Part shown: positions 6,533-27,514 of the stretch, piece by piece
How the letters are laid out: each line of letters begins with the position of its first letter
Numbering within the stretch: the stretch's first letter is position 1
Origin: Candidatus Magasanikiibacteriota bacterium
GTDB lineage: Bacteria > Patescibacteriota > Patescibacteriia > Magasanikbacterales > UBA922
Assembly: GCA_021648085.1 (NCBI GenBank)
Contig: JAKITS010000001.1
Span: forward strand, 682,759 to 746,758
Direction of reading: 5' to 3'
Length of the DNA stretch: 64,000 nucleotides
The notes under the pieces: model-generated
Told to the model about the DNA's origin: nothing
The model's database searches: none
What the model saw: only the letters and a program-made list of their open reading frames with translations
Position numbers and translations under genes: made by a program

Positions 6533-7085
6533 AATAATTTTAGGATTTACTGGTTTTATTGCTAGTGGAAAAGGAACCGCAGCAGAATATTTAAAAGAAA
6601 AATACAATGCGCCGTCTTACAGATTTTCTACAATGCTTCGTGATATTTTAGATAGGATTTATGTAGAAAAAAATAGAGACAATCTCATAAAAACTTCAGA
6701 ATTTATTAGAAGTACTTTTGGTGAAGATGTGATGGCTAAAACACTTGGAAAAGATGTGGAAAACGACTCAAGTAATACAATAGTAGTTGACGGAATTCGT
6801 AGAATGGCCGATATTGAATACCTAACAAAAATGTCTGGTTTTGTGTTAATTCATATCGATGCAAATCCAAAAATTCGCTACGAGAGATTGGTAAAAAGAT
6901 CTGAAAATACAGACGACCAATCTAAAACTTACGAAGACTTTTTAGCAGACCACGAAAGATCTACAGAAATTAGTATTCGTGAAGTTGCAAAGCAGGCTAT
7001 GGAAAAAATTGAAAACAGTGGAAATTTTGAAGAATTAAACAAGCAAATAGATAATATTATAAAAAAATATGGAGGTCAAAATTAA
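6519..7085 (+). CDS. P-loop nucleoside/nucleotide kinase (dNMP-kinase or CoaE-like); specificity unknown
   Basis: Walker A motif GFTGFIASGKGT. It overlaps both neighbours, suggesting translational coupling. It sits inside the dTMP gene cluster. Confidence 0.55.
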   Translation: MTNNKIILGFTGFIASGKGTAAEYLKEKYNAPSYRFSTMLRDILDRIYVEKNRDNLIKTSEFIRSTFGEDVMAKTLGKDVENDSSNTIVVDGIRRMADIEYLTKMSGFVLIHIDANPKIRYERLVKRSENTDDQSKTYEDFLADHERSTEISIREVAKQAMEKIENSGNFEELNKQIDNIIKKYGGQN

Positions 7086-7497
7086 AAGAGTTGACAAATC
7101 ACTTCCACTTCCCCACTATCAAACTAAAGGGTCTGTTGCTTTTGATATTTATACACGAAAAGATATTTCAATTGAACCAAAAGAAATAAAAATGGCTCCA
7201 AGCAATTTGATTATTGAGACTCCACAAAATTTCATGCTTGTAATTGCAGCACGCTCTAGTCTACAGAAAAGAAGTTTAATGCTTGCAAATAATGTAGGAA
7301 TAGTTGATCAAGATTATTGTGGAGAAAATGACGAGATAAGCACAGCACTTTATAATTTTGGAAATGAAACCGTAGAAATTAAAGCAGGCGAAAGAATTGC
7401 ACAAGGAATTTTTGTGCCAATTGTGAAAGTAAACTGGCAAGAAGTTGATAAAATGTCTAACAATAATAGAGGTGGTTTTGGTTCAACAGGAATTTAA
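7069..7497 (+). CDS. dut: dUTP diphosphatase
   Basis: dUTPase motifs (AARSSL, GIVDQDY, and RGGFGSTG at the C-terminus). Confidence 0.9.
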   Translation: MEVKIKRVDKSLPLPHYQTKGSVAFDIYTRKDISIEPKEIKMAPSNLIIETPQNFMLVIAARSSLQKRSLMLANNVGIVDQDYCGENDEISTALYNFGNETVEIKAGERIAQGIFVPIVKVNWQEVDKMSNNNRGGFGSTGI

Positions 7498-7503
7498 AAA
7501 ATT

Positions 7504-8376
7504 ATGAAACAATATTTAGATATAGTAAAAAATGTATTGGAAAATGGAGAAAAAAAGGAAAACAGAACAGGAGTGGATACTATTGCGGTTGCTGGAGCTT
7601 TTTTCCAGCACGATATGTCCAAAGGTTTTCCAATGTTGACAACAAAAAGAGTACCTATCAGACTTGTCTCTAGTGAATTGGAATTTTTTATAAAAGGATT
7701 GACAGACAAACAGTGGTTGCAAGATAGAAACAACCACATTTGGGACGAATGGGCTTACCCAAAAAAAGCACCGTACGGACATAGCGAAGAAGCAAAGAAG
7801 AAAATGCGAGAAGAAAGAGATTTGGGTGCAATTTATGGATTTCAGTGGAGAAATTTCAATGCTCCGTACGACCACCACACCAGCGATTATTCTGGAAAAG
7901 GTGTAGATCAACTTAAAAATGTAGTTGACAAACTAAAAACAAACCCACATGACCGCAGAATGATAGTGTCGGCTTGGAATCCTACAATGATAAATGAAAT
8001 GGCTCTTCCGCCTTGCCACTATGCTTTTCAAGTGACAGTGATAAACGGAAAATTAAATCTACTCTGGAATCAGCGTTCTGTGGATGTTATGCTTGGGCTT
8101 CCTTTTAATATTGCGAGTTATGCCTTACTATTACATTTGCTCGCCAAAGAATCTGGTTTTGAAGAAGGTCGTCTAATTGGGTTTTTGGCAGATACTCATA
8201 TTTATGAAAATCATATAAATGGAGCAAAAGAACAATTAACACGCGATGTAACTAAATTCCAATTACCAAAAATAGAAACAGAAAATTTTTCATCTATTTT
8301 TGACTGGCAGTATACAGATACAAAACTTTCCAACTACCAAAGTTATCCACGAATTAAATTTGATATAGCAGTTTAA
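7504..8376 (+). CDS. thyA: thymidylate synthase (ThyA type)
   Basis: Opens MKQYLDIVKNVLENG. Carries the catalytic-Cys region PPCHYAFQV and ends with the ThyA C-terminal IKFDIAV. Confidence 0.95.
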   Translation: MKQYLDIVKNVLENGEKKENRTGVDTIAVAGAFFQHDMSKGFPMLTTKRVPIRLVSSELEFFIKGLTDKQWLQDRNNHIWDEWAYPKKAPYGHSEEAKKKMREERDLGAIYGFQWRNFNAPYDHHTSDYSGKGVDQLKNVVDKLKTNPHDRRMIVSAWNPTMINEMALPPCHYAFQVTVINGKLNLLWNQRSVDVMLGLPFNIASYALLLHLLAKESGFEEGRLIGFLADTHIYENHINGAKEQLTRDVTKFQLPKIETENFSSIFDWQYTDTKLSNYQSYPRIKFDIAV

Positions 8377-8377
8377 T

Positions 8378-8848
8378 ATGATCGCATTAATGTCAGCCGT
8401 AAGTGAAAACAATTGTATAGGAGTAAGTGGTGATTTGCCGTGGAATATTCCTGGAGATATGAAATTATTCAAAAAATATACAACAGGAAATGTGGTAATA
8501 ATGGGGCGAAAAACTTGGGAATCTCTACCAGAAAAATTTCGCCCACTTCCAAACAGAAAAAATATTATAATAACTAGGCAACCAGATTATAAAGCACCAG
8601 AAGAGGTGGCGGTTTATTCTGATATCAAAAAAGCTATACAAGCTCACAAAAATGAAAAAGTTTTTATAATTGGCGGTGGCGAAATTTACAAACAGTCTAT
8701 AGATTTGGCCGATACACTTTATATCACAAAAGTTCACCGAACAATAGATGTGTGCGATACTTTTTTCCCAAAAATAGACGAGACAAAATGGAAAATAACA
8801 GAAGAAGAAAAAATGGGAGAAATTTCTTTTTTAACTTATGAAAAATAA
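8378..8848 (+). CDS. folA: dihydrofolate reductase
   Basis: MIALMSAVSENNCIGVSGDLPWNIPGDMKLFKKYT...IMGRKTWESLP. The start is coupled to thyA. Confidence 0.9.
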   Translation: MIALMSAVSENNCIGVSGDLPWNIPGDMKLFKKYTTGNVVIMGRKTWESLPEKFRPLPNRKNIIITRQPDYKAPEEVAVYSDIKKAIQAHKNEKVFIIGGGEIYKQSIDLADTLYITKVHRTIDVCDTFFPKIDETKWKITEEEKMGEISFLTYEK

Positions 8849-8850
8849 TT

Positions 8851-9690
8851 ATGTCTAATAAAGACAGCTCGATCACGCTTTTTCACGAAAAACAAGTTCG
8901 CAGACATTGGAATGAAAAAGATGAACTTTGGTATTTTTCAGTTGTAGACGTTATTTCTGTTTTAACTAACTCTACAATTCCAAAAAGATATTGGAGTGAC
9001 CTAAAAAATAAATTTAAAAATGAAGGAAGTGAAGTGTACGAAAAAATCGTACGGTTCAAAATGATAGCTTCTGATAATAAAATAAGGGAAACCGACTGTT
9101 TCTCTACCCAAGATTTATTACGTGCAATCCAATCCATTCCCTCCCCAAAAGCAGAACCTTTCAAACTTTGGCTTGCAAAAGTTGGCTATGAAAGAATAGC
9201 AGAAACCGAAGATCCAGAACTTGCAATAGACCGAGCAATGCAAACCTATTTTAAAAAAGGATATTCCAAAGATTGGATAAATCAGAGAATAAAAACAATT
9301 GAAGTAAGAAAAGAATTAACAGATGAGTGGGAAGAAAGAGGAGTTCAAAAAGGAATAGAATTTGCAATTTTAACAGATGAGATTACAAAAGCTTGGTCTG
9401 GAAAATCTGTAAAACAATATAAAAAGTTTAAAAATCTTCAAAAACAGAATTTAAGAGATAGTATGACTAATTTGGAGTTGATTTTAAATATGCTTGCCGA
9501 AGCAACAACAACCGAAATATCCAAAGAAAAACAACCAAAAACTTTTTTAGAAAGTAAGGAAATCGCCAAAAAAGGTGGTGACACAGCAGGTAAAGCTAGG
9601 ATAGATATTGAAGAAAAAATAGGAAAAAGTATTATTTCCCCAAAAAATGCACACTATTTACAAAATAGTATAAATAACAAGTTGCAATAA
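8851..9690 (+). CDS. dinD: DinD-like DNA-damage-inducible protein (Bro-N N-terminal domain)
   Basis: By eye it aligns with E. coli DinD: a Bro-N-like N-terminus (FHEKQVRRHWNEKDELWYFSVVDV), a KAEPFKLWLAKV/AIDRAMQTYF block and an MTNLELILNMLAEATTTEIS block. Confidence 0.65.
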   Translation: MSNKDSSITLFHEKQVRRHWNEKDELWYFSVVDVISVLTNSTIPKRYWSDLKNKFKNEGSEVYEKIVRFKMIASDNKIRETDCFSTQDLLRAIQSIPSPKAEPFKLWLAKVGYERIAETEDPELAIDRAMQTYFKKGYSKDWINQRIKTIEVRKELTDEWEERGVQKGIEFAILTDEITKAWSGKSVKQYKKFKNLQKQNLRDSMTNLELILNMLAEATTTEISKEKQPKTFLESKEIAKKGGDTAGKARIDIEEKIGKSIISPKNAHYLQNSINNKLQ

Positions 9691-9723
9691 TTTTAACTTA
9701 ATTCTTAATCCTTTTTTAAAAAT

Positions 9724-10425
9724 ATGTTTATAATTTTAGATGGAATAGACGGCAGTGGAAAAACAACAATAATAAAAACTTGGGCTGAATATTTAGAAAA
9801 CAATGGTAAAAAAGTTTTTAATTTGATTGATTTTTGGAAAGAAAATGAAAAACACCCAAAAGCAGAAGACCTGCTTGAATATGATGTGATAATTTCTGGA
9901 GAACCAACACACGCCTGGATTGGCAAAGCTATTCGCAACGAAATAATACAAAATGGAAATGACTATACTGCAAGTGCCACAGCAAATGCATATTCATTGG
10001 ACAGATTAGTTCTTTATAAAAGAATTTTAGTTCCACTTCTAAAAGCTGGAAAAATAATTTTGCAAGACAGAAGTGTAAGCACTTCACTTTGTTATCAACC
10101 AATCCAGGGAAATGTAGATATAGATTTTGTGGCAAACTTGGAAGGAAATGCTTTTGCACTACAAAATGCTCCAGATTATTTGATAATCGCAAACCTACCC
10201 GCAAACTCTGCACTTGATAGACTTTCTACAAGATATGAAAAACAAGATAATACGATTTTTGAAAACAAACCATTTTTAGAAAAAGCACAAGCTCAGTTTT
10301 TGAATCCAGAATATCAAAAATATTTCACAGAAAAAGGAACTAAAATTGAAGTCTTGAATGTAAACACAGAAATTGCTATAATGAAAATGGATGCTTTAAA
10401 CTTACTTAAAAAAATAATGAACTAA
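9724..10425 (+). CDS. tmk: thymidylate kinase
   Basis: P-loop ILDGIDGSGKTT. A LID-region and a DRS-like motif (QDRSVSTS). Confidence 0.85.
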   Translation: MFIILDGIDGSGKTTIIKTWAEYLENNGKKVFNLIDFWKENEKHPKAEDLLEYDVIISGEPTHAWIGKAIRNEIIQNGNDYTASATANAYSLDRLVLYKRILVPLLKAGKIILQDRSVSTSLCYQPIQGNVDIDFVANLEGNAFALQNAPDYLIIANLPANSALDRLSTRYEKQDNTIFENKPFLEKAQAQFLNPEYQKYFTEKGTKIEVLNVNTEIAIMKMDALNLLKKIMN

Positions 10426-11390: not shown

Positions 11391-12935
11391 ATGTATCAAA
11401 CAATCATTGGAATGGAGGTTCATGTAGAACTAAAAACAAATAGCAAAATGTTTTGCTCTTGCAAAAATAATCCAGACGAAAATGAGCCAAATAAAAATGT
11501 ATGCGAAATTTGCCTTGGTCACCCAGGCACGCTTCCAACAGCAAACAAAAAAGCCATCGCGTGGACTGTAAAAATTGGAAAAGCTTTGGGCTGTTCTATT
11601 CGTGAAGTTTCAAAATTTGATCGTAAACATTATTTTTATCCAGACCTGCCAAAAGCATATCAAATTTCTCAGTTTGACGAGCCTATTGCAGAACACGGAG
11701 AAATAACTCTTACTTTTGAAACAGAAGAAAATGTTCGCGATACTGCTTTGATTGAGATAGAAAGAGTACATTTGGAAGAAGATACAGCAAAATTGACACA
11801 TGACAAAGAAGGAAACACTTTGGCAGATTTCAATCGCGCCAGCACTCCCCTCGTTGAAATTGTATCAAGGCCAGATTTCAAAACTCCACTTGAAGCAAAA
11901 ACTTATTGCCAAGAATTACGCTCAATTTTGAGATATTTAAATGTGAGTGATGCGAATATGGAAAAAGGTCTAATGCGTTGTGAGGCAAATATTTCTGTGC
12001 AAGAAGCAGGAAAATTTGAAATTGTGGATGGAGTTGTAAAACCACTTGGTGATTATGTTTTAAATTCAAAAGTTGAAGTAAAAAACTTAAATTCTTTTAA
12101 AGCAGTAGAGAAAGCACTTGAATTTGAAATTGCGCAGCAGACAAAAATGCTGGAAAATGGAGAAAATTGGGAACAGCAGACAAAAGGTTGGGACGCAAAA
12201 AAACAAGAAACAATTCCACAAAGAAAAAAGGAATCTGCACATGATTATAGATATTTTCCAGAACCAGATATTCCACCGTTTCACCCTTTGCAAATTGCTG
12301 GTGAGATAAGTTTGCCAGAATTACCAATTGCAAAAAGAAAGAGGTTTCACACAGAGTACGGATTTTCCTATTCTGACTCCAAAATACTGACAAACGATAA
12401 AGAGTGGGCAGATTTTACCGAACGCGTGATGAGCGAGCTTGTGGACTGGTTGCACAGCCTGCCAGAAATAAAAGGAGATAGCAATGAAATAATGGAAGAA
12501 AAAAGAAATAAAATCGCACGACTTTGTGGAGGCTGGCTTACCAGTAAACTAATGGGTGAAATGATAAATAGAAAAATGCATATAAAAACTTTGGCAATTT
12601 CTCCAGAAAATTTTGCAGAACTTGTGGCACTTGTTTATGCTGAACGCATCAATTCTACAAATGCACTCAAACTTTTGGGAGATATGCTTAACGCTGGAAC
12701 TGATATTGACCCGACACAAATAATGGAGGAAAAAGGTTATGGGCAAATTAACGATGAAGGAAAATTGGGTGAAATTATAGAAAATGTAATCCGAAGTTAT
12801 CCAGACCAAGTGGAACAATTTAAACAAGGAAAAGAACCAATACTAAAATTCCTAATTGGAATGGCAATGAAAGCAAGTGAAGGAAGTGCTGACCCAAAAG
12901 TTTTGGAAAAAATGCTTAGAGAAAAATTGAAATAA
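11391..12935 (+). CDS. gatB: Asp-tRNA(Asn)/Glu-tRNA(Gln) amidotransferase subunit B
   Basis: GatB N-terminus MYQTIIGMEVHVEL, a Cys cluster, and a C-terminal YqeY-like domain. Confidence 0.95.
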   Translation: MYQTIIGMEVHVELKTNSKMFCSCKNNPDENEPNKNVCEICLGHPGTLPTANKKAIAWTVKIGKALGCSIREVSKFDRKHYFYPDLPKAYQISQFDEPIAEHGEITLTFETEENVRDTALIEIERVHLEEDTAKLTHDKEGNTLADFNRASTPLVEIVSRPDFKTPLEAKTYCQELRSILRYLNVSDANMEKGLMRCEANISVQEAGKFEIVDGVVKPLGDYVLNSKVEVKNLNSFKAVEKALEFEIAQQTKMLENGENWEQQTKGWDAKKQETIPQRKKESAHDYRYFPEPDIPPFHPLQIAGEISLPELPIAKRKRFHTEYGFSYSDSKILTNDKEWADFTERVMSELVDWLHSLPEIKGDSNEIMEEKRNKIARLCGGWLTSKLMGEMINRKMHIKTLAISPENFAELVALVYAERINSTNALKLLGDMLNAGTDIDPTQIMEEKGYGQINDEGKLGEIIENVIRSYPDQVEQFKQGKEPILKFLIGMAMKASEGSADPKVLEKMLREKLK

Positions 12936-13869: not shown

Positions 13870-15318
13870 ATGAACCAAAATTTCAAAGGAAAAAGTATTA
13901 TATCCATCAAAGAATTAACAAAAGAAGAAATTCTTTATATTTTAGAATGTGCACAAGAGTTAAAAATTAACCCAAAACCAAACCTACTTTCAGGATATGT
14001 CATGGGAAGTTGCTTTTTTGAACCATCTACTAGAACTAGACTATCTTTTGAAACTGCTATGAATCGTTTGGGTGGAAAAGTAGTGGGATTTGCAAATGCT
14101 GGAATAACCTCAGCAAAAAAAGGGGAAACTTTATATGATTCAATAAAAAATATTGGTCAATATGTGGATATAATAGCAATGCGTCATCCTTTGGAAGGAA
14201 CTGCCAGAAGAGCGACGGAGGCAACAGACAAACCAATTTTAAACGGCGGAGACGGCACAAATCAACATCCAACTCAAACACTTTTAGATTTATTTTCAAT
14301 AAAAGAGTGTCAAGGAACTTTAAATAATTTGAACATTGCGATAATAGGAGATTTGAAATATGGAAGAACTGCACACAGCCTAACACAAGCTCTAACTCAT
14401 TTTAAACCTAGATTACATTTTGTTGCTCCAAATTTTCTGCAAATGCCCAATTATATACTCGACGGACTAAAAGAAAATGGAATTGAGTATTTTTTACATA
14501 AAAAAATGGAAAACCTGTTGACTGAAGTGGATATTTTGTATATGACAAGAATTCAAGCAGAAAGATTTTCAGATCGAGCAGCATATGAAAAAGTAAAAAA
14601 TGTCTATATTTTGACATCTGGTATGCTTCAAAATGTTAAAGAAAATATGAGAATTATGCATCCACTACCGAGAGTAAATGAGATTGAGACAAAAATAGAC
14701 GACACAAAATATGCATACTATTTTCAACAAGCAGAAAACGGATTATTTGTGCGGCAAGCACTTCTGGGATTATTACTTGGGAAATCAATTTTAAATGAAA
14801 ATATGCAAATTAATGAGCCAACTTTTAATAATTACAGAATTGAAAATAAACAATTTGAGAATGAAAATAAACAATTTAAAGTTCTCACCATAGAAAACGG
14901 AACAGTTATAGACCATATACCTAAAAAAGTTGCTTTTAAATTATTCAAAATATTAAACTTGGCAAGTGACAATAAAATAGTATCAATAGGTGTAAATTTT
15001 CCTAGTCAAAAAGTGGGTACAAAAAATTTAATTAAAATAGAAAATAAAGAATTAACAGAAAAAGAAGTTAGTATTTTGGCTATTTTTGCACCGGACGCCA
15101 CGATAAATATTATCCGCAATTTTAAAGTTTATAAAAAATTTAAAACTGTAATTCCAAAAGAAGTCGCCAAACTTTTGGTTTGTCCAAATCCAAACTGTAT
15201 AACAAATAATGAAAAAATGGATAGTCATTTTTTCATTAATAAAAATAATTTAGACGCTCAATGCAAATATTGTGAGAAAATTTTTCATCAAAATGAAATT
15301 AAAAAATATAAAATATAA
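13870..15318 (+). CDS. pyrBI: aspartate carbamoyltransferase, catalytic and regulatory chains fused (PyrB-PyrI)
   Basis: N-terminal ATCase motifs: STRTR, HPTQ, HPLP. The C-terminal ~150 aa matches the PyrI regulatory chain (GTVIDHIP, LIKIEN, VCPNPNCI, CKYCEK). Confidence 0.85.
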   Translation: MNQNFKGKSIISIKELTKEEILYILECAQELKINPKPNLLSGYVMGSCFFEPSTRTRLSFETAMNRLGGKVVGFANAGITSAKKGETLYDSIKNIGQYVDIIAMRHPLEGTARRATEATDKPILNGGDGTNQHPTQTLLDLFSIKECQGTLNNLNIAIIGDLKYGRTAHSLTQALTHFKPRLHFVAPNFLQMPNYILDGLKENGIEYFLHKKMENLLTEVDILYMTRIQAERFSDRAAYEKVKNVYILTSGMLQNVKENMRIMHPLPRVNEIETKIDDTKYAYYFQQAENGLFVRQALLGLLLGKSILNENMQINEPTFNNYRIENKQFENENKQFKVLTIENGTVIDHIPKKVAFKLFKILNLASDNKIVSIGVNFPSQKVGTKNLIKIENKELTEKEVSILAIFAPDATINIIRNFKVYKKFKTVIPKEVAKLLVCPNPNCITNNEKMDSHFFINKNNLDAQCKYCEKIFHQNEIKKYKI

Positions 15319-15323
15319 AAAAT

Positions 15324-16277
15324 ATGAGACATATAATTTCACTAAAAGAACAATCAAAAAATGATATTTTGGGAATACTCAACACAGCTATAAAACTGAA
15401 AAAAGAATTTAAATCTGGAGTTGAACATAAAATATTATCAAACCAAACTTTGATAATGCTTTTTCAAAAATCATCCACCAGAACAAGACTTTCTTTTGAA
15501 ACAGCTATGACACAATTGGGCGGACACGCTATTTTTCTAGATGCAAAAACTACTCAGTTTTCTTTGACTGATTTTGGTGATGAAGTGCAAGCTGTTATGA
15601 GATTTGGAGAACTGCTAATGTTTAGAGCCAAAAAATCCGCAGATGTGGAATTGGCAGCTAATTTTGACAATATTCCAGTGGTGGACGCTTGTAGTGAAAA
15701 ATATCATCCAGCACAAGCTTTAAGCGATATTTTGACAATGGCTGAACATAGTGGAGGTCTAGAAAATGTAAAAAAAATAGTTTGGCTTGGAGTAGAAAAT
15801 AATGTTTCAAACACACTAATGCTTGCTTGCGCAAAATTAGGAATAGAAGTTGTTTTGGTGGCACCAGAAATAGACCCAGATAGTATTGATACAGAATTAA
15901 ACAAACAAGCAGAAGAAACAGGAAAAATAAAAAGAACATTGAATTTGCGTGATGCACTACAAGACGCAGATTATGTTCATACAGATACTTGGATGAATAT
16001 GGAGTTTTTTGAAAATGGAAAAGTAAAGCCAGAAATGCAAGAAGAATTTTACAGAAAAAAAGAAAAATTTATGCCATATCAACTTAATGCTAATTTAATT
16101 GATACTTACGCACCAAACGCAAAAATAATGCATTGTATGCCTTGTCATATTGGATATGAAATATCACGCGATGCTATTGATCACAAAAATTCAATAATTT
16201 TTGATCAGGCTGAAAACAGATTGCATATGCAAAAAGCTATGATATTATGGATGTTGGAGAAAGAAAATCTAGTTTAG
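15324..16277 (+). CDS. ornithine-carbamoyltransferase-family transcarbamylase with a non-canonical substrate motif
   Basis: STRTR and HPAQ are present. MHCMPCH corresponds to OTC HCLP. IFDQAENRLH matches OTC. DTWMNME replaces the canonical DxWxSMG. Confidence 0.75.
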   Translation: MRHIISLKEQSKNDILGILNTAIKLKKEFKSGVEHKILSNQTLIMLFQKSSTRTRLSFETAMTQLGGHAIFLDAKTTQFSLTDFGDEVQAVMRFGELLMFRAKKSADVELAANFDNIPVVDACSEKYHPAQALSDILTMAEHSGGLENVKKIVWLGVENNVSNTLMLACAKLGIEVVLVAPEIDPDSIDTELNKQAEETGKIKRTLNLRDALQDADYVHTDTWMNMEFFENGKVKPEMQEEFYRKKEKFMPYQLNANLIDTYAPNAKIMHCMPCHIGYEISRDAIDHKNSIIFDQAENRLHMQKAMILWMLEKENLV

Positions 16278-16278
16278 T

Positions 16279-18984
16279 ATGAAAATTTTAAACGAGCCGA
16301 TTTATGACAAAAATAAATCTTATCAATACAACCTTATAAACGGTCCGTTTTTCAATGAAGAAATTCCAACGATTCCTGATGTAGAAAAAGAAAAATGGGT
16401 TGATTTTCTAGGTTTTAAAATTCGCTCCAGAATCGGTGTGCCAGCTGGACCACTCTTGAGCTCAAAATGGATAGCTCTTGCCTCGAAAATGGGGTTTGAT
16501 ATTCTCACTTACAAAACAATTCGAAGTAAATATGCAGGTGGGCACAAGAGTCCAAATATTGTGTTCGTTGAAACTCCAAACCAATTTAAAACTTCAGACC
16601 TGAACACAAATTTTACACTCAAAAAAACTCCAGTTAAAAAGACAGGTGAAATAGCAATCACCAACTCTTTTGGTATGCCTTCTATGGATCCAGATTTTCT
16701 AATAGAAGATATCAAAAAAGCTCACGCAAGTATAAAAGAAGGGCAAATTATCATAGTTTCTGTAGTTGGAAGCCAAAGCGAAAATACAAGTTTGGCAGAA
16801 GATTTTGTAAATGTTTCTAAGCTTGCAAAAAGTGCTGGTGCAAAAATAATTGAGGTAAATTTTTCTTGTCCAAATGTAAAAAGTAAAGAAGGAATTTTGT
16901 ACAAAGACTCTGAGCAAGTTTTTGAGATAATTCAAAAAATAAAAAATGAAATAAAAGAAACACCTTTAATCGTAAAACTTGGTTTTTTTGAAACTGTAGA
17001 ATCACTCCAAAAAACTTTGGTTGCAATATCAAAAGCTGGAGCCTCTGGAATTGCGGGTATAAACTCTGTCTCCGTAGCCGTTCAAAAAGAAGATGGCTCA
17101 CCAGCACTTGGAATTGGTAGAGAAAAAAGTGGACTTTGCGGAAACCCAATTCGAAATTTAGCACTAGAATTGACAAAAAATGCAAAAGAAATTATTGAAA
17201 ATAAAAGCTTAAATCTAAAAATAATTGGAATGGGTGGAGTTTCCGAACCAAAGCATTTCAATGAATTTTTGCAAGCCGGAGCCGATATTACAATGACCGC
17301 AACCACAATGCTTTGGCATCCACAAATAGCATTTGAATATAAAAAAGAACAGCAAAAAAATAAACTGGTTTCAGATTTATTTGAAATAGGCGCTATAAAA
17401 TTTGGTGGATTTACTCTAAAAAATGGAACTCTCTCGCCTATTTATATAGATCTGCGTATCACAGTTTCATATCCAAAAATTCTGATGAAAATTGCAGACG
17501 CATTAAATGAATTAGCTTCAAATACAGATTTTGATCTTATTTGTGGAGTTCCTTATACTGCCCTACCGTTTGCTACAGCAATGTCTATAAAATATAATAT
17601 TCCAATGGTAATGCGCAGAAAAGAAGCAAAAAAATACGGCACAAAAAAAATAATAGAAGGTGCTTTTGAGTCAGGGCAAACATGTTTAATTGTAGAAGAT
17701 TTGATTACAAGCGGATCTAGTGTTTTAGAAACTGTTGAACCGCTAAATGATGTAGGCCTAAATGTGACAGATGTTGTAATACTTTTGGACAGACAGCAAG
17801 GCGGAAGAGAAAATTTAGAAAAAGCTGGAATAACAGTAAAATCAATCTTTAAAATAAGTGAATTGTTGGAAACCCTTTTAAACCAAAATAAAATCTCTGA
17901 ACAAAAATTTAATGAAATACAAAATTATCTTTATAGCACAAAAATAGAAAAAATAACAATACGAAAACCAGATGATTTTCATGTGCATTTGCGCAGAGGA
18001 CAAACACTTATCAATGTTTTACCTTTTACATCCGCAGTATTCAAAAGAGCCGTAATAATGGGAAACACAACTCCACCAATTAAAAATAGTCCTGACGTTA
18101 TTTCTTACAAAAAAGAAATAGGACTGCACGCTCACGACGGATTCACGCCAATAATGTCGATAATGCTTACAAACAGCACAACACCAAAAGACATAGAAGA
18201 TGCTTTTGACGCTGGAGCAAAAGTATTAAAACTTATCCCTGAAGGAACCTCTACAAATTCCGATGAAGGTGTGCCTTTGTCACTTCTTAAAAATTATTAC
18301 AATGTCCTTAAAATTGTACAAGATTTGGGTATGATTTTCTCTGGACACTGGGAGTTAATTGAAAATCCAGAAACTGGAGAAAAAATTCCTGAAATAGAAA
18401 GAGAAACACAGGCAATTCCATTTCTTTTAAAATTAATTAGAGATTTTCCTAAATTAAAAATAGTTGTAGAACATGTGACATCCAAAGAAATGATACAAAC
18501 TGTTGAACAATCTCCTAACAATGTTTCAGCTACTATTTCTGCACACCATCCAATTTTAACTTTTGACGATGTGTGCAATAAAGATAGTGATATTATCAAT
18601 CCCCTCAATTATTGCAAACCTATCGCAAAAAATGAGGTAGACCAAAAAGCAATAATTAAAGCAATGACTAGCGGAAATCCAAAATTCTTTTTTGGTTCAG
18701 ATAGCGCTCCACATCCAATTAATCAGAAAATAGATAGCCAAAATTGTCCTGCTGGAATATTTTCAGCCCCAATTGCATTACCTTTATTATGCGAAATTTT
18801 TGAAAATGAAAATGCTTTAGATAAATTAGAAGATTTTGTATCAAAATTTGGTGCAGAATTTTATGGAATACCTTTAAACCAAGAATCTATTACATTGAAA
18901 AAGGAGCAGTGGAATACTCCTTATGAACACAACGGAATTGGAATATTTAAAGGTAAAGATAAATTAAATTGGCAAATTATTTAA
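16279..18984 (+). CDS. pyrDEC: trifunctional fusion: dihydroorotate dehydrogenase (class 1) - orotate phosphoribosyltransferase - dihydroorotase
   Basis: N-terminal domain: NFSCPN, GMGGV (PyrD family 1). Middle domain: FEIGAIKFGGFTLKNGTLSPIYIDLR...LIVEDLITSGSSV (PyrE). C-terminal domain: RKPDDFHVHLRRG...GSDSAPH...FYGIP, which aligns by eye with E. coli-type PyrC. Confidence 0.85.
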   Translation: MKILNEPIYDKNKSYQYNLINGPFFNEEIPTIPDVEKEKWVDFLGFKIRSRIGVPAGPLLSSKWIALASKMGFDILTYKTIRSKYAGGHKSPNIVFVETPNQFKTSDLNTNFTLKKTPVKKTGEIAITNSFGMPSMDPDFLIEDIKKAHASIKEGQIIIVSVVGSQSENTSLAEDFVNVSKLAKSAGAKIIEVNFSCPNVKSKEGILYKDSEQVFEIIQKIKNEIKETPLIVKLGFFETVESLQKTLVAISKAGASGIAGINSVSVAVQKEDGSPALGIGREKSGLCGNPIRNLALELTKNAKEIIENKSLNLKIIGMGGVSEPKHFNEFLQAGADITMTATTMLWHPQIAFEYKKEQQKNKLVSDLFEIGAIKFGGFTLKNGTLSPIYIDLRITVSYPKILMKIADALNELASNTDFDLICGVPYTALPFATAMSIKYNIPMVMRRKEAKKYGTKKIIEGAFESGQTCLIVEDLITSGSSVLETVEPLNDVGLNVTDVVILLDRQQGGRENLEKAGITVKSIFKISELLETLLNQNKISEQKFNEIQNYLYSTKIEKITIRKPDDFHVHLRRGQTLINVLPFTSAVFKRAVIMGNTTPPIKNSPDVISYKKEIGLHAHDGFTPIMSIMLTNSTTPKDIEDAFDAGAKVLKLIPEGTSTNSDEGVPLSLLKNYYNVLKIVQDLGMIFSGHWELIENPETGEKIPEIERETQAIPFLLKLIRDFPKLKIVVEHVTSKEMIQTVEQSPNNVSATISAHHPILTFDDVCNKDSDIINPLNYCKPIAKNEVDQKAIIKAMTSGNPKFFFGSDSAPHPINQKIDSQNCPAGIFSAPIALPLLCEIFENENALDKLEDFVSKFGAEFYGIPLNQESITLKKEQWNTPYEHNGIGIFKGKDKLNWQII

Positions 18985-22947: not shown

Positions 22948-24090
22948 ATGAGAAGAGAATTAAAAATCCCCAGTTTTTCTAAAGAAGAATTTCTAAATAT
23001 ACCAAATAAAGAATATTTTTCTAAATTTGAAAATGCACTTGAAAAAGATGCTGAATTTAATTTTGATAATTTAAGTGAAGAAGAAACACAAAGTTTAATT
23101 TCAACCAGACAAAAATTTGAAGATGCTAGAAAAAGTTATGAAGGAGTTGATGAGAAATTTAGTGAAGTAATAGAAAACTCAACAAAACAAGATGTTATAA
23201 ATGTATTATTAGGTGGAGATCTTTCAACTTTTGAAACTAGTACAATTTTAAGATTAAAAAAAGATGATCCAGATATTTTGGCTGCGGCTTCTGTACACAA
23301 ACCAACAGAAGTAATATCTGTTTTAGCTCACACAAATTCAGAATTCTCATCACAAATAATTCAATCTATTTTAGAAAGCAAGCCTTCTCTATTAATAACT
23401 ATTGATTTAAAAATACAATTAGACATAATTTCCAAAAAACCAGAATATTTAATTTTTGCAGATAGTAGAGTACAAGAAGATTATTTAAATAAAAATCCTG
23501 ATTTTTTAAGTACCTTAAAAGATGAGGAACAGAAAGTAGTTATAGCCAGTCTTTTAAGTTTGAGCGGTGATTATAATGTTTTAGATCCAATTTTAGAAAA
23601 AATAAAAGACAAAAACTCAATATTAAAACATTTAGACGAATATAAAATAAAATACCCAAAAGAATATCAAAGATATATAGAAAAACCATTAAAGCAAAGA
23701 GAGGTTTTACTAGACACTTCTACTTTAATTAAATACAAAAATAATGGAGACATGTCTGATATATCTCTAATTCTTGCACTGAAACATAATGTCGACATAA
23801 AAGAAAAAGTTCTCGAAGGAATAAAAGATGTTGATCCAGATTATTATGAAAAAATTATTAATAAAATAAAAATATTAGATAATTTTATAAATTTACCTAT
23901 TGAGCAAAAAACTGATTTACTTAAAAAAGGTATGGTGACTGAAGAAGAAGTTAGCCTTATTTTAAAAAAATTATATCCTAGTCATCCAGAAGTAGTAGAG
24001 ACACTTCTAAGACCTACTTTAACTAAGTTAAATCGTGAAAATTTACATTCTACTCCATACAAAGCAGGAAATATAAAAAACATAATTTAA
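22948..24090 (+). CDS. hypothetical protein (predicted all-helical, no TM)
   Basis: Long ORF with typical codon usage. No recognisable motifs. Confidence 0.5.
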   Translation: MRRELKIPSFSKEEFLNIPNKEYFSKFENALEKDAEFNFDNLSEEETQSLISTRQKFEDARKSYEGVDEKFSEVIENSTKQDVINVLLGGDLSTFETSTILRLKKDDPDILAAASVHKPTEVISVLAHTNSEFSSQIIQSILESKPSLLITIDLKIQLDIISKKPEYLIFADSRVQEDYLNKNPDFLSTLKDEEQKVVIASLLSLSGDYNVLDPILEKIKDKNSILKHLDEYKIKYPKEYQRYIEKPLKQREVLLDTSTLIKYKNNGDMSDISLILALKHNVDIKEKVLEGIKDVDPDYYEKIINKIKILDNFINLPIEQKTDLLKKGMVTEEEVSLILKKLYPSHPEVVETLLRPTLTKLNRENLHSTPYKAGNIKNII

Positions 24091-24110: not shown

Positions 24111-25217
24111 ATGAACCCAGAAAGAAGAAGAATATCCATTGCAGAAGCCGAAGCTGCAACCGCAAAAGTTAGAGGAGACACTGGGGATTTTGATTTTGGA
24201 GAAGACGGTGATGATGAAGAAGAGGAAGGTGATTTTTTTGCAACTCCGGGAGAATTAGAACAACATAAAAAAGAAGTGGTTGAAAAAGAAAGAATAACAA
24301 TCGAAAAAGAAATAGCTGAAAAAAAAGCAACAATAGAAAAAAATAGAAAAAACCCAACAGCGGCTGAAATGGCAATGAGAGAGCTTTTATTTTCTGAACA
24401 AGGACTTCGAGTTCAATCAATATACAACCCAGAATTACCACCAAACCCAAATAGAAAACAAGAATTGCAAAAATTAACAGAAGTTTATGAAAAACCCCCA
24501 CTTTCTAATATGGAAAAGCAAAAAATAGAATTAATGGGACAGCAGTTCGATAATGCGAGAGATAGTTTTTATACAAAATATAGTGAAGATGATTTGGCAA
24601 ATTATACATCCGGGGCAAATCAAAATGAAATGCAATTTTTGATAGAACGAAACCCAAATAGTGCAAAAATATTAAGTGCTTCTGTGGCTGGAAAAGGTAT
24701 AAAAGCAAGAAAAGCTTTAGAAATTATATCGCGAATGCAGACATTAGAAGATTCAACATTAAGCCCTGAATTTAAAAAAGATTTAATAGATATAAAATTA
24801 GAATTAAACCCTGAATTAATAAATGCACTACCAGAAGAAATGCAAATACAAGAAGTATTTGAAAATCCAACCTTATTACGACACACATCTAGAGAAGCCC
24901 AGCAAAAAGTATTAGAAACTACACCACCAGAAAAATTTGCAGAAATGCTTGGTCAATTAGAAGTAAACAATTTAGATTTACTTACTGAAATAGAAGGTTT
25001 TCAAAATAATCAAGAAATAATGAGAAAACTTGTGGCTTTTGCCATTCAAGGTCCAGACCATTTTTTGAAACTACCAAATGAAACTCAAGACAAAGTTTTT
25101 GCAAAAATGGATGAACCGACAAAAAAACAGTTTATAAACTCAGCTAGAAAATTTATAAAAACTCACGGCTCACAAAAAATGCCAAGAGAAATTGAAAGAA
25201 GAGTTTGGCAAGCTTAA
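24111..25217 (+). CDS. hypothetical protein with an acidic N-terminal stretch (GEDGDDEEEEGDFF)
   Basis: Long ORF. No recognisable motifs. Confidence 0.5.
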   Translation: MNPERRRISIAEAEAATAKVRGDTGDFDFGEDGDDEEEEGDFFATPGELEQHKKEVVEKERITIEKEIAEKKATIEKNRKNPTAAEMAMRELLFSEQGLRVQSIYNPELPPNPNRKQELQKLTEVYEKPPLSNMEKQKIELMGQQFDNARDSFYTKYSEDDLANYTSGANQNEMQFLIERNPNSAKILSASVAGKGIKARKALEIISRMQTLEDSTLSPEFKKDLIDIKLELNPELINALPEEMQIQEVFENPTLLRHTSREAQQKVLETTPPEKFAEMLGQLEVNNLDLLTEIEGFQNNQEIMRKLVAFAIQGPDHFLKLPNETQDKVFAKMDEPTKKQFINSARKFIKTHGSQKMPREIERRVWQA

Positions 25218-26305: not shown

Positions 26306-27514
26306 ATGGAAAAAGAAAGTAAAATAATGAGTATGAGCGAGGTGGCCAAAGAAATAGCAAAAGAAGATAACATGACAGAGACAGAAAAAGCACTTGCCGA
26401 AACTATGATTGCAGGTAAACAATCTGCGGAAGAGCAAAAGCAAGAAAAAAAAATGAAAAAAGAAGAAATAGAAATGGTGAAAAAATCAGAAGTGCAAAGG
26501 GCTGATTATCTTCAAGCTGCTCAAAAAGCAAACAATCAGCCACCCACAGAAAATGCTGGAGTAAATGAAGCAATAAATATACGAAATGCTTATAATGCGT
26601 CCGCAAATGTGGAAGATCCAAAAGTAGAAATAGAAAGAATGCAAAAACAACAAGAAATGTTAAAAGAAATAAAATTGGAAGAACAAAAAGCTGAACTTCA
26701 AAAAACTATCCAATCTGGTGAGGCAGAACTTGATGTTGCTTCAAAACCAGAAACAGATGAAGAAAAAATAATTATTTCTCCAGATTTTCAACAAGAAATA
26801 AAAAACGAAAAAAGAAAAGATGTAATAGAAGCTTTAAACGAAGCACAAAAAGCTGGTAAGGAATCTATAAAAGCAGATGAAGAAAAAGAAAAAAATACTA
26901 GTTTAGAGGAATTAACAAAGCAAGCGACTGCAGAACAAGAAAGTAAAAAAGTAGAAGACACTATTCCACCAACAACAGAAAGTGCAATAAAAACAGAACC
27001 GCCAGAAAAACTATCTGACATACTCAAAGAAGGAGAGGAAAAAGAACAAATTGGAACAGAAATTACTCCAGAGTGGCAAGAACTTGAAAAAGAATTAGAC
27101 TCAGCCCCAACAAAAGAAGAGCTAGAAGTTTTACCAGAAATTACAGAATTAGAACCACTTCCAACAAAAGGAATGGGTGAAATGATAAAAGATACACCAA
27201 TGGATCCAGACACAAAAGAATGGCTTTTGGCTCAAAGAGGATTGTTGAAAAAAGTAAATGATACAGAAGGTTCAGAAAAACAAAAAAGAGAGCTACTCCT
27301 AGAAGAGTTAACAGCAAAACTAGAAGAAAAAGAAGCTAAGCTCAAAAAAACATGGTTTTTTGGAAAAAGTGCACTCAAAAAAGATATCAAAAGATTGAAT
27401 GAAATAATAAACGACTCCACACTATTTAAAACTGGCGAGGCAACAAAACCAAGAAACTCGTCCAGAATGAATCGAGGCTCAGAAAATAGTTCTGGCTTCG
27501 CAAGTAAAGTTTAA
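26306..27514 (+). CDS. hypothetical Lys/Glu-rich low-complexity protein
   Basis: 402-aa ORF coupled to the previous gene. A terminator at 27565-27590. Confidence 0.5.
   Translation: MEKESKIMSMSEVAKEIAKEDNMTETEKALAETMIAGKQSAEEQKQEKKMKKEEIEMVKKSEVQRADYLQAAQKANNQPPTENAGVNEAINIRNAYNASANVEDPKVEIERMQKQQEMLKEIKLEEQKAELQKTIQSGEAELDVASKPETDEEKIIISPDFQQEIKNEKRKDVIEALNEAQKAGKESIKADEEKEKNTSLEELTKQATAEQESKKVEDTIPPTTESAIKTEPPEKLSDILKEGEEKEQIGTEITPEWQELEKELDSAPTKEELEVLPEITELEPLPTKGMGEMIKDTPMDPDTKEWLLAQRGLLKKVNDTEGSEKQKRELLLEELTAKLEEKEAKLKKTWFFGKSALKKDIKRLNEIINDSTLFKTGEATKPRNSSRMNRGSENSSGFASKV

What the first reader, a model, noticed from the sequence alone, without database searches (positions are those of the whole stretch)
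16279..18984. Single 901-aa ORF fusing PyrD, PyrE and PyrC (dihydroorotate dehydrogenase - OPRTase - dihydroorotase)
One uninterrupted reading frame carries three pyrimidine-pathway domains. Residues ~1-350 are class-1 DHODH (NFSCPN, GMGGV). Residues ~365-545 are OPRTase (PRPP-binding LIVEDLITSGSS). Residues ~555-901 align by eye with E. coli-type dihydroorotase (PDDFHVHLRRG...GSDSAPH...FYGIP). The enzymes for pathway steps 4, 5 and 3 are covalently linked in that non-pathway order. To my knowledge this differs from the eukaryotic CAD and UMPS fusions and is not a standard bacterial arrangement. It suggests substrate channelling in a minimal genome.
Basis: partly seen in the sequence, partly recalled or inferred. 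Interest (0 to 1): 0.7.

Follow-up and report, generated by a model that had tools for sequence, protein, structure and literature searches.

The report
Three pyrimidine enzymes fused in one protein
A tiny-genome groundwater-type bacterium (Candidatus Magasanikbacteria) encodes dihydroorotate dehydrogenase, orotate phosphoribosyltransferase and dihydroorotase as one 901-residue protein; this exact combination was found nowhere else in public data, but it is one more variant in a pathway and lineage where such gene fusions are common.

Summary
Window 16279-18984 (+) is one uninterrupted 901-aa ORF with three domains. Residues 1-355 are a divergent DHODH-family flavoprotein domain. Residues ~359-551 are a UMPS-type OPRT. 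Residues ~557-901 are an E. coli-type (class II) dihydroorotase. All checked catalytic motifs are intact.

The protein is public (MCF6276907.1, Ca. Magasanikbacteria MAG, annotated only as 'dihydroorotase'). An exhaustive HMMER scan of 1.84 billion representatives found no other protein spanning all three domains.

It is not isolated, though. Relatives carry D~E (553 aa) and D~E~F (844 aa) fusions. A separate E~C fusion family (511-513 aa) exists, and so do D~C, C~D and C~OTC-like fusions. In related operons (pyrB-pyrI-pyrC(I)-[OTC-like]-pyrD-pyrE-pyrF) the class II pyrC here sits where pyrF normally lies, and the class I pyrC is gone.

The E/C junction has essentially no linker, and the PyrC domain has no start codon of its own. 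That argues for a real fusion. A 1-nt deletion error in the A-rich junction cannot be excluded without reads (~10%).

'Class 1 DHODH' is only partly right: it has a Cys base but fails every class-specific model. Substrate channelling is untested. Verdict: real, rare, a new variant of a known kind; moderate interest.

The parts
16279..18984 (+). Whole 901-aa ORF pyrD~pyrE~pyrC, stop codon included. Its ATG lies 1 nt after the stop of the upstream OTC-like gene (TAG T ATG).
   Evidence: Identical to NCBI MCF6276907.1.
16279..17343 (+). Residues 1-355: divergent DHODH-family FMN TIM-barrel domain. Putative catalytic Cys197 lies in NFSCPN. K79, N129, N194, K233, N262 and G319-G320 are invariant across the family. 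It has a conserved N-terminal extension of about 45 residues.
   Evidence: Pfam DHO_dh 78.7 bits. Family invariants. AF2 model pLDDT 91.3, pTM 0.91. Foldseek hits to DPD and DHODH at E~1e-18 to 1e-19, TM 0.67-0.71. It occupies the pyrD slot in about 50 related operons.
17353..17931 (+). Residues ~359-551: UMPS-type orotate phosphoribosyltransferase domain. PRPP loop LIVEDLITSGSS at 470-481; flexible loop RRKEAKKYGTKK at 446-457.
   Evidence: NF010382 242.7 bits against cutoff 208. Best solved relative is the human UMPS OPRT domain 2wns, 204.7 bits, aligned through to ...NYL.
17932..17946 (+). E/C junction, residues 552-556 (Y-S-T-K-I). Relatives' OPRT ends two residues after ...NYL. ATA (I556, 17944-17946) sits where stand-alone PyrC homologues have their ATG. 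An A5 run lies at 17940-17944.
17947..18981 (+). Residues 557-901: class II (E. coli-type) dihydroorotase domain. Metal and substrate residues are H568, H570, R572, N596, K651 (the residue that is carboxylated in E. coli DHOase), H690, H732, D808 and H812. Active-site loop is GTSTNS.
   Evidence: TIGR00856 328.4 bits against cutoff 292.95. Vibrio cholerae DHOase 5vgm 228.9 bits. 73 of 76 columns that are >=90% conserved in 31 stand-alone CPR homologues are retained. pLDDT 95-98.
13870..15318 (+). Same operon: pyrB~pyrI fusion (aspartate carbamoyltransferase catalytic plus regulatory chain, 482 aa), pathway step 2.
   Evidence: TIGR00670 369.6 bits against 236.95, and TIGR00240 162.4 against 148.55. 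Pfam OTCace_N/OTCace/PyrI/PyrI_C.
15324..16277 (+). Same operon: OTC-like carbamoyltransferase (317 aa) with remodelled 80s and SMG loops. It is a conserved neighbour of the DHODH-like gene in Magasanikbacteria. Role unknown.

Best explanation
This is a genuine trifunctional pyrimidine-biosynthesis protein of a Candidatus Magasanikbacteria (CPR/Patescibacteria) genome. The C-terminal class II dihydroorotase cyclises N-carbamoyl-L-aspartate to dihydroorotate (step 3). The N-terminal FMN domain oxidises dihydroorotate to orotate (step 4). It uses a Cys base and a soluble, non-quinone acceptor, most plausibly fumarate. The central UMPS-type OPRT converts orotate plus PRPP to OMP (step 5). Together with the upstream PyrB~PyrI fusion, steps 2-5 are encoded by two polypeptides in one translationally coupled operon. 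The architecture arose in a lineage whose ancestral operon was pyrB-pyrI-pyrC(class I)-OTC-like-pyrD-pyrE-pyrF. pyrD and pyrE fused, as in the closest relatives. The class I pyrC was lost. A class II pyrC of CPR type was placed at the 3' end of pyrE, in the position pyrF holds in relatives, and joined in frame with loss of the stop and start codons. Shown: the ORF, the domain identities, intact catalytic motifs, the junction anatomy, the comparative operon structure, and the uniqueness of the combination. Inferred: all enzymatic activities, the electron acceptor, the order of evolutionary events, and any kinetic benefit. The simplest benefit is fixed 1:1:1 co-expression and fewer genes; channelling is possible but untested.
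For: The ORF is continuous. Three domain assignments are above curated cutoffs. Solved-structure relatives exist for each domain. Catalytic and ligand residues are intact in all three domains. The PyrC domain keeps 73 of 76 highly conserved columns.

Junction: relatives stop at ...NYLQQ/NYLKK, while here the frame runs NYL-YSTK-I-EKITIRKPDDFHVH. Stand-alone PyrC homologues begin M(x)KITIRKPDD, 9-11 residues before the DDxHxH motif. There is no in-frame ATG/GTG/TTG between TTG 17863-17868 and the GTG inside the HVH metal motif, so the PyrC domain cannot be made on its own.

GC3 of the three segments (0.18-0.23) matches neighbouring genes, so there is no sign of a chimera. Downstream synteny (small ORFs, miaA, miaB) and upstream gatB match relatives.

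Fusions recur independently in the clade: D~E (L001-3, L011, L017), D~E~F (L013-15) and C(I)~OTC-like (L014). An independent E~C(II) fusion family has complete 511-513-aa ORFs in three separate assemblies, one of them from the GOS marine metagenome (accession prefix AACY).

DHODH role of the N-domain: it sits between pyrC and pyrE in about 50 operons that contain no other pyrD.

Fumarate hint: an aspartate ammonia-lyase~DHODH-like fusion in Babeliales (P0014; NF008909 518.6 bits against 510) and an ArgH-like lyase immediately upstream in the closest relatives. No pyrK is present in the window.
Against: There is only one assembly of this locus: cluster size 1, one contig, and the gene is not on record in the contig index. 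The junction therefore has no independent confirmation and no read support. The junction is A-rich (A5 at 17940-17944). A single missing base after 17934 would resolve it into two overlapping genes. No pyrF, carAB, pyrK or fumarate-producing lyase is in the 64-kb window, so completeness of the pathway and the oxidant are unverified. The N-domain fails all class-specific DHODH models and is as close to dihydropyrimidine dehydrogenase as to DHODH. No activity has been measured. The full-length model gives no reliable domain arrangement (pTM 0.50).
Confidence: 0.75

Rival explanations
1. Assembly or sequencing artefact. The true genome has two genes, pyrD~E and a separate class II pyrC. A 1-nt deletion error in the A-rich junction (for example A6 read as A5 at 17940-17944) merged the frames.
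For:: inserting one base between 17935 and 17947 gives a pyrD~E ending at codon 554-565, plus a pyrC that could start at ATG 17912-17914 in the +1 frame (MKYKIIFIAQKIEKITIRKPDD...). The locus is known from a single contig only. The closest relatives are two-domain, 553 aa.
Against: The two genes would overlap by about 26-65 nt. The hypothetical PyrC would carry an 11-residue N-terminal extension read from the alternative frame of the OPRT C-terminal helix, placing DDxHxH about 20 residues from the start; 97 of 99 homologues have it at 17 or fewer, mostly 9-11. No SD-like sequence precedes ATG 17912. In the assembled frame, I556-E-K-I-T-I-R-K-P-D-D aligns residue for residue with M-D-K-I-T-I-R-K-P-D-D of stand-alone homologues, as expected for a fused former start codon. 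No single-base deletion gives two viable genes. Other long genes in the window are intact (thrS 600 aa, ftsH 622, gyrA 843, ileS 1001), so indel errors are not rampant. E~C fusions do exist elsewhere.
Confidence: 0.1
2. The fusion is real, but the N-terminal domain is not the pathway's dihydroorotate dehydrogenase. It could be a DPD/PreA-like or other flavin oxidoreductase. Alternatively, one domain may be a catalytically dead scaffold, like the DHOase-like domain of fungal CAD. The protein would then not be trifunctional in the proposed sense.
For: The N-domain scores far below all DHODH equivalog cutoffs. The top Foldseek hits are the FMN domain of pig dihydropyrimidine dehydrogenase (TM 0.71). 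PDB sequence hits are weak, 49 bits at best.
Against: In about 50 operons from Chlamydiae, Dependentiae and Magasanikbacteria, this domain is the only pyrD candidate and lies exactly between pyrC and pyrE. It is fused to OPRT, OMP decarboxylase or DHOase in several lineages. The residue pattern typical of the DHODH active site (K79, N129, N194, C197, K233, N262) is invariant across the family. The PyrC and OPRT domains exceed equivalog cutoffs and keep their catalytic residues.
Confidence: 0.1
3. The fusion is real but recent and of no functional consequence: a neutral stop-codon loss in a decaying, streamlined genome. It may even be on the way to pseudogenisation of the pathway, given that pyrF is missing from its usual place.
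For: The architecture is a singleton. pyrF is absent from the window and from its conserved position 3' of pyrE. The former start codon position is ATA.
Against: All three domains keep conserved residues. The operon is compact and translationally coupled.
Confidence: 0.05

Closest known systems
DHODH-like~OPRT~OMP decarboxylase (D~E~F) fusion of a sister Ca. Magasanikbacteria MAG (P0006 = MFH1287005.1, 844 aa; locus L014). Similar fusions occur in Dependentiae (L013) and an uncultured bacterium (L015).
   Same: It has the same divergent DHODH-like N-domain (50% identity) and the same UMPS-type OPRT (58-60%) fused in the same order. It lies in the same operon position after an OTC-like gene, and it is also a three-enzyme polypeptide.
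   Different: Its third domain is OMP decarboxylase (step 6), giving colinear steps 4-5-6. Here the third domain is a class II dihydroorotase (step 3), giving the order 4-5-3. Here pyrF is missing from the locus.
Two-domain DHODH-like~OPRT proteins (552-553 aa; P0002-P0005, loci L001-L004, L011)
   Same: They are 64-79% identical over residues 1-551, with the same D/E junction and the same downstream synteny (small ORFs, miaA, miaB).
   Different: They stop two residues after ...NYL and have no PyrC domain or adjacent pyrC. Their upstream genes are a PRK06886-type amidohydrolase and an ArgH-like lyase, instead of pyrB~I and the OTC-like gene.
OPRT~class II DHOase (E~C) fusion family, 511-513 aa (P0254/L008, L095, L096)
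   Same: It has the same two domains in the same order, and the junction falls at the same place in PyrC (…EIKIRKPNDFHHH).
   Different: It is only 34-38% identical and has no DHODH domain; its ATG lies directly before the OPRT domain. It comes from AT-rich marine contigs of unknown origin, so the fusion is probably independent.
Eukaryotic CAD (CPSase-DHOase-ATCase) and UMP synthase (OPRT-OMPdc)
   Same: These are covalent fusions of consecutive pyrimidine-pathway enzymes. The OPRT domain here is of the UMPS type; its best solved relative is the human UMPS OPRT domain.
   Different: The domain sets differ. CAD covers steps 1-3 and UMPS covers steps 5-6. Neither includes DHODH, which in animals is a separate mitochondrial class 2 enzyme (established knowledge). 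Here steps 3-5 are joined.
E. coli / Vibrio class II dihydroorotase (PyrC; PDB 1j79, 5vgm)
   Same: It shares the same subfamily (TIGR00856 above cutoff), the HxH, Lys, His, His and Asp metal ligands, and the TTNS-type active-site loop.
   Different: The known enzymes are stand-alone ~345-aa homodimers. Here the domain is the C-terminal part of a 901-aa chain, and its first beta-strand follows the OPRT C-terminal helix after about 2 residues.
Class 1A/1B DHODH (Lactococcus lactis PyrDa 1dor, PyrDb 1ep1)
   Same: It is an FMN TIM barrel with a Cys in the (N/I)xSCPN motif, which is the catalytic base in class 1 (established knowledge). The Lys/Asn active-site pattern is shared.
   Different: Similarity is only 34-49 bits, below all class models. 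It has a ~45-residue conserved N-terminal extension and no pyrK nearby. It forms a separate clade found in Chlamydiae, Dependentiae, Magasanikbacteria and Rickettsiella.

Membership tests
Class II (E. coli-type, 'pyrC_dimer') dihydroorotase | Score above the curated equivalog cutoff of TIGR00856 over the full model | tested here: met
   328.4 bits against cutoff 292.95; residues 558-900 match model positions 1-340 of 341.
Class II (E. coli-type, 'pyrC_dimer') dihydroorotase | Binuclear-metal ligands (HxH, carboxylated Lys, His, His, Asp), substrate residues (Arg, Asn, His) and the mobile T-T-N-S loop | tested here: met
   H568, H570, R572, N596, K651, H690, H732, D808 and H812 are present. The loop is GTSTNS.
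Class II (E. coli-type, 'pyrC_dimer') dihydroorotase | Homodimeric stand-alone enzyme; measured DHOase activity | not testable with these tools
   Needs biochemistry.
Orotate phosphoribosyltransferase (type I PRTase, UMPS-type) | Score above the curated equivalog cutoff | tested here: met
   NF010382 242.7 bits against 208; TIGR00336 140.6 bits against 106.8.
Orotate phosphoribosyltransferase (type I PRTase, UMPS-type) | PRPP-binding loop (acidic pair followed by T/S-G-x-T/S) and flexible catalytic loop with Lys | tested here: met
   VEDLITSGSS at 472-481 and RRKEAKKYGTKK at 446-457. These align with human OPRT 2wns.
Dihydroorotate dehydrogenase family (Pfam DHO_dh) | Pfam gathering threshold; FMN TIM-barrel fold | tested here: met
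   78.7 bits against 27. AF2 pLDDT 91.3. Foldseek hits to DPD and DHODH at E~1e-18 to 1e-19, TM 0.67-0.71.
   80.6 bits against 270, 96.5 against 269, and 69.2 against 301.
   C197 lies in NFSCPN and is invariant in 19 family members.
Class 1B DHODH | PyrK electron-transfer subunit encoded alongside | tested here: inconclusive
   tblastn with a PyrK-containing query found no PyrK in the 64-kb window or in 85 related loci.
Class 2 DHODH | Catalytic Ser and an N-terminal two-helix quinone/membrane domain | tested here: not met
   It has Cys, not Ser. The N-terminal extension is modelled with one short helix (15-21) plus short strands. Class 2 models score 35-62 bits against cutoffs of 200-477.
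CAD / UMP synthase type fusions | Domain composition CPSase-DHOase-ATCase, or OPRT-OMPdc | tested here: not met
   There is no CPSase, ATCase or OMPdc domain in the ORF. No OMPdc is present in the window.
D~E fusion family of Magasanikbacteria and relatives | Collinear DHODH-like plus OPRT in one ORF, with conserved motifs TYKTIR and AITNSFGMPS | tested here: met
   64-79% identity to P0002-P0005 over residues 1-551. Motifs lie at 77-82 and 126-135.

The most novel reading that the evidence does not exclude
The 901-aa protein is a working 'mini-metabolon'. It would take N-carbamoyl-aspartate to OMP without releasing dihydroorotate or orotate. It would be built around a previously uncharacterised class of soluble DHODH, shared by Chlamydiae, Dependentiae, CPR and Rickettsiella, that uses fumarate or another non-quinone acceptor. 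The unusual 4-5-3 domain order and near-zero linkers would reflect a specific quaternary assembly of three dimeric enzymes.
Probability: 0.15. Interest if true: 0.6.

Novelty: new variant of a known kind. Interest (0 to 1): 0.38.

Why it matters
Multi-enzyme fusions of the pyrimidine pathway (CAD, UMPS) are textbook cases for studying co-regulation and possible substrate channelling. None of the known ones includes DHODH, the redox step. This protein covalently links DHODH to both its upstream and its downstream enzyme in a bacterium with about 1 Mb of genome. If it is real and active, it offers a compact natural system for testing whether dihydroorotate and orotate are channelled. It is also a convenient handle for characterising a divergent DHODH clade, widespread in host-dependent bacteria (Chlamydiae, Dependentiae, CPR, Rickettsiella), whose electron acceptor is unknown. 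It further illustrates how operon genes are fused and swapped during genome streamlining: class I pyrC lost, class II pyrC gained in the pyrF slot, and pyrB~pyrI fused. On the practical side, the public annotation ('dihydroorotase') hides two of the three functions, so pathway reconstructions for this MAG would wrongly score pyrD and pyrE as missing.

Tried and rejected
(1) Chimeric assembly or recent foreign DNA: rejected. GC and GC3 of the three segments equal those of neighbouring genes, and flanking synteny matches relatives.

(2) Simple stop-codon loss between genes that are adjacent in the closest relatives: rejected. The 553-aa relatives have no pyrC downstream, and none of 85 related loci has a class II pyrC beside pyrE. 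A pyrC insertion or replacement is also needed.

(3) Independent translation of PyrC from an internal start: rejected. There is no in-frame ATG/GTG/TTG before the HxH motif.

(4) Looking for a second D~E~C protein. I ran a word-indexed search with the full protein, with the PyrC domain and with an E~C profile. I also ran exhaustive phmmer, a genome-contig scan and a metagenome-contig scan. None was found. Many 'both-domain' metagenome hits turned out to be adjacent pyrC-pyrE genes in GC-rich soil bacteria.

(5) Retrieving the source contig to look for pyrF, pyrK or carAB elsewhere: failed. The gene is not on record in the contig index, and the genome is not among the GTDB representatives returned.

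(6) Full-length AlphaFold model to judge domain packing: uninformative. pTM was 0.50, and the D and E domains had low pLDDT because only four sequences covered them. A first mixed alignment (A2) was discarded as misaligned.

(7) Assigning the N-domain to a DHODH class by sequence or fold: inconclusive.

(8) Literature: six full-text searches found no description of DHODH~OPRT, D~E~C or CPR pyrimidine fusions. Only the known eukaryotic fusions are discussed (PMC7052976).
Full report
OBSERVATION. The ORF is real. Window 16279..18984 (+) is a single ATG-initiated frame of 901 codons with no internal stop.

Domain searches give three non-overlapping assignments:
- Pfam DHO_dh, 78.7 bits (cutoff 27), residues 127-347, and Pribosyltran, 40.2 bits (cutoff 26.3).
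- NCBIfam OPRT NF010382, 242.7 bits (cutoff 208), residues 353-556.
- NCBIfam class II dihydroorotase TIGR00856, 328.4 bits (cutoff 292.95), residues 558-900, covering the entire model.

Solved-structure relatives agree:
- PyrC domain against Vibrio cholerae and E. coli DHOases, 229 and 176 bits.
- OPRT domain against the OPRT domain of human UMP synthase, 2wns, 205 bits.
- N-domain only weakly against DHODH B, 49 bits; DPD, 38 bits; DHODH A, 34 bits; and class 2, 31 bits.

CATALYTIC INTEGRITY. In the DHOase domain the expected residues are all present: the HxH pair (H568/H570), R572, N596, the lysine that is carboxylated in E. coli DHOase (K651), H690, H732, D808/H812 and the mobile GTSTNS loop. 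The domain retains 73 of the 76 columns that are at least 90% conserved among 31 stand-alone CPR homologues.

The OPRT domain has the PRPP loop VEDLITSGSS and the Lys-rich flexible loop.

The N-domain has C197 in NFSCPN, plus K79, N129, N194, K233, N262 and G319-G320. All are invariant in a 19-member family alignment. On its own it folds confidently as a TIM barrel (pLDDT 91.3, pTM 0.91). The barrel superposes equally well on the DPD FMN domain and on class 2 DHODHs (TM 0.67-0.71, E~1e-18 to 1e-19).

JUNCTIONS. Both linkers are very short. The closest relatives end two residues after ...EI(K/Q)NYL. Here the frame continues NYL-Y-S-T-K-I-E-K-I-T-I-R-K-P-D-D-F-H-V-H.

Stand-alone CPR PyrC proteins start M-(D/S/K)-K/I-I-T-I-R-K-P-D-D, typically 9-11 residues before DDxHxH. 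I556 (ATA, 17944-17946) therefore sits exactly where their ATG would be.

There is no in-frame ATG, GTG or TTG between TTG 17863-17868, which lies deep in the OPRT C-terminal helix, and the GTG that encodes the Val inside the HVH metal motif. The PyrC domain therefore depends on translation of the upstream domains. In the full-length model the OPRT C-terminal helix (541-555) runs into the first DHOase strand (558-562).

ORGANISM AND OPERON. The protein is identical to NCBI MCF6276907.1, 'MAG: dihydroorotase [Candidatus Magasanikbacteria bacterium]', on a 984,181-bp contig.

The window is an ordinary CPR gene set: nusG, L1, thrS, ftsH, gyrA, ruvA, ileS, a type IV pilus ATPase, and a dCMP deaminase-thyA-folA-tmk cluster. 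GC is 29-35%.

The ORF is the last gene of a tight same-strand block: gatB (11391-12935), then pyrB~pyrI as one 482-aa ORF (13870-15318), then an OTC-like carbamoyltransferase (15324-16277), then the 901-aa ORF. The 901-aa ORF starts 1 nt after the preceding stop. No pyrF, pyrK, class I pyrC, argH or aspA is present in the 64 kb.

COMPARATIVE PICTURE. A pattern scan of one genome per GTDB species returned 80 loci encoding the same divergent DHODH-like protein. They come from Chlamydiae (Waddliaceae, Rhabdochlamydia, Parachlamydiaceae), Dependentiae, Magasanikbacteria and Rickettsiella/Aquirickettsiella.

I mapped domains on these and five further loci. The recurrent operon is pyrB-pyrI-pyrC(class I)-pyrD-like-pyrE-pyrF. 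In Magasanikbacteria an OTC-like gene lies between pyrC and pyrD-like, as in L039, where every gene is separate. This is strong context evidence that the divergent domain is the pathway's DHODH.

Fusions occur repeatedly:
- D~E in L001-L003, L011 and L017.
- D~E~F in L013, L014 and L015.
- class I PyrC~OTC-like in L014.
- OTC-like~D, DHOase~OTC-like~D, DHOase~D and aspartase~D in other metagenomic proteins.
- D~class II PyrC in P0344.

Only the window has D~E~C(II), and only the window has pyrB~pyrI fused. Relative to its relatives, this genome has lost the class I pyrC from between pyrI and the OTC-like gene. It carries a class II pyrC exactly where pyrF normally follows pyrE.

The class II domain's best relatives are stand-alone 340-350-aa proteins of other Patescibacteria (Falkowbacteria, Moranbacteria, Portnoybacteria), at no more than 60% identity. 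It is therefore of CPR type, and its codon composition is native.

RARITY. An exhaustive phmmer scan of 1.84 billion cluster representatives found 15,425 hits, but none covering all three domains. The top hits are D~E proteins, then single-domain proteins. A profile of the E~C part against 5.8 billion proteins returned only the query itself with both domains.

The exhaustive scan did reveal P0254, an OPRT~PyrC protein. Its contig copy is 5'-truncated. Two further metagenome contigs carry complete 511- and 513-aa ORFs that begin at the OPRT domain (L095, L096). An E~C fusion family therefore exists independently, at 34-38% identity. This shows that joining OPRT to a class II DHOase at this point is viable.

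IS THE FUSION AN ARTEFACT? Reads were not available, so this cannot be settled. I enumerated all single-base indels across 17890-17967. No deletion, but some insertions after 17934, would give two genes. These correspond to a deletion error in the assembly, for example in the A5 run. The result would be pyrD~E ending at codon 554-565, and a pyrC starting at a fortuitous +1-frame ATG at 17912.

That arrangement would need a 26-65-nt overlap and an atypically long PyrC N-terminus read from the alternative frame of the OPRT helix, with no SD-like sequence before the ATG. In contrast, the assembled frame aligns residue for residue with the N-termini of stand-alone PyrC proteins. Long genes elsewhere in the window are intact. 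Independent assemblies of sister lineages show analogous fusions. I put the artefact at about 10%.

MECHANISM. What is shown is the sequence anatomy. The activities are inferred from homology. The protein should convert N-carbamoyl-L-aspartate, made by the upstream PyrB~PyrI, to dihydroorotate (C-terminal domain), then to orotate (N-terminal domain), then to OMP (middle domain).

The oxidant is unknown. The enzyme has a Cys base, is fused to soluble enzymes, has no quinone-type N-terminal domain and has no pyrK nearby. In Babeliales the same domain is fused to an aspartate ammonia-lyase. In the closest relatives an ArgH-like lyase lies immediately upstream. Both lyases release fumarate. Fumarate-dependent, class 1A-like chemistry is therefore the most economical inference, at roughly 40% confidence.

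All three parent enzymes are homodimers (established knowledge), so a dimeric or higher assembly is plausible. The AlphaFold full-length model does not define it (pTM 0.50). Channelling is possible but has no support here. Fixed stoichiometry and gene economy are sufficient explanations.

COMPARISON AND NOVELTY. The protein is a member of the D~E fusion family, of the class II DHOases and of the UMPS-type OPRTs. It is not a member of CAD or UMPS. Its N-domain fails membership of classes 1A, 1B and 2. Six full-text literature searches found no description of a DHODH~OPRT or D~E~C protein, or of these CPR operons.

The sequence itself is already public, under an incomplete name. I rate it a new variant of a known kind, namely multifunctional pyrimidine-pathway fusions. 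It is real with about 75% confidence as a trifunctional enzyme and is of moderate interest (0.38). The more surprising leads are peripheral: the divergent DHODH clade with an unknown acceptor, the OTC-like gene embedded in and fused into these operons, and the amidohydrolase plus ArgH-like pair that replaces pyrB/pyrI/pyrC in the closest relatives.

Noticed in passing
window 13870-15318 (+): pyrB and pyrI are fused into one 482-aa ORF. The linker is about 30 residues and contains an ENKQF/ENENKQF repeat. In all 85 related loci examined, pyrB and pyrI are separate genes. A bifunctional PyrB/PyrI family exists in NCBIfam (NF009916), but this protein scores only 211 bits against its cutoff of 800, so the fusion is probably independent.
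   Followed up: partly
window 15324-16277 (+): An OTC-like carbamoyltransferase lies between pyrB~I and the 901-aa ORF. It falls just below the OTC cutoffs (275 bits against 280.85). Against P. furiosus OTC, the 80s loop (LRRGEtiaDT) is replaced by FSLTD-FGDE. The ornithine-binding DVWASMG loop is replaced by DTWMNMEFFENGKVKPE, which includes an 8-residue insertion. The gene is conserved next to the DHODH-like gene in Magasanikbacteria. It is fused to class I DHOase (L014 5708-7960) or to the DHODH-like domain (P0016, P0013). Its substrate and role are unknown.
   Followed up: partly
L001-L003, L022, L027, L038 (e.g. L038 5709-7986): In the closest relatives of the D~E protein, the pyrB-pyrI-pyrC-OTC-like block between gatB(/guaB) and pyrD-like is replaced. 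In its place are a PRK06886-type amidohydrolase (369 bits against cutoff 340, named 'hypothetical protein') and an ArgH-like lyase (TIGR00838 331 bits against 279.5). This pair might provide fumarate or an alternative route into the pathway. That idea is untested.
   Followed up: partly
L095 1033-2568; L096 102-1643; L008 1-1533: An OPRT~class II dihydroorotase two-domain fusion family (511-513 aa) occurs on AT-rich marine metagenome contigs. Neighbouring ORFs are highly acidic or Lys-rich and have no family hits. The host is unknown and could be a virus or a eukaryote.
   Followed up: partly
loci L011-L090: The divergent DHODH-like family (motifs TYKTIR and AITNSFGMPS, ~360 aa, Cys base) is confined, in the species representatives returned, to host-associated or reduced-genome bacteria. 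These are Chlamydiae, Dependentiae, Magasanikbacteria and Rickettsiella/Aquirickettsiella, plus one bin labelled Wolbachia. NCBI names some members 'hypothetical protein'.
   Followed up: partly
P0014 / P0417 (Babeliales, 788-809 aa): This is an aspartate ammonia-lyase~DHODH-like fusion (NF008909 518.6 bits against cutoff 510). It physically links a fumarate-producing enzyme to this DHODH clade.
   Followed up: partly
window 6038-10425 (+): A compact deoxypyrimidine cluster: dCMP deaminase, a P-loop nucleotide kinase, thyA, folA, a Bro-N domain protein (8851-9690, an unusual insertion in such a cluster) and tmk.
   Followed up: no
window 1-64000: ARAGORN finds no tRNA or tmRNA gene in the whole 64-kb window. 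Several ORFs of 220-400 aa have no Pfam hit (e.g. 22948-24090, 24111-25217, 26306-27514, 32939-34075, 35966-36952).
   Followed up: no
L018 8697-9730 (Waddliaceae MFD05684 bin): The pyrD-like and class I pyrC genes of this long-read MAG appear split into two pieces each, most likely by frameshift errors. This is a reminder that assemblies of this kind can carry indels.
   Followed up: no
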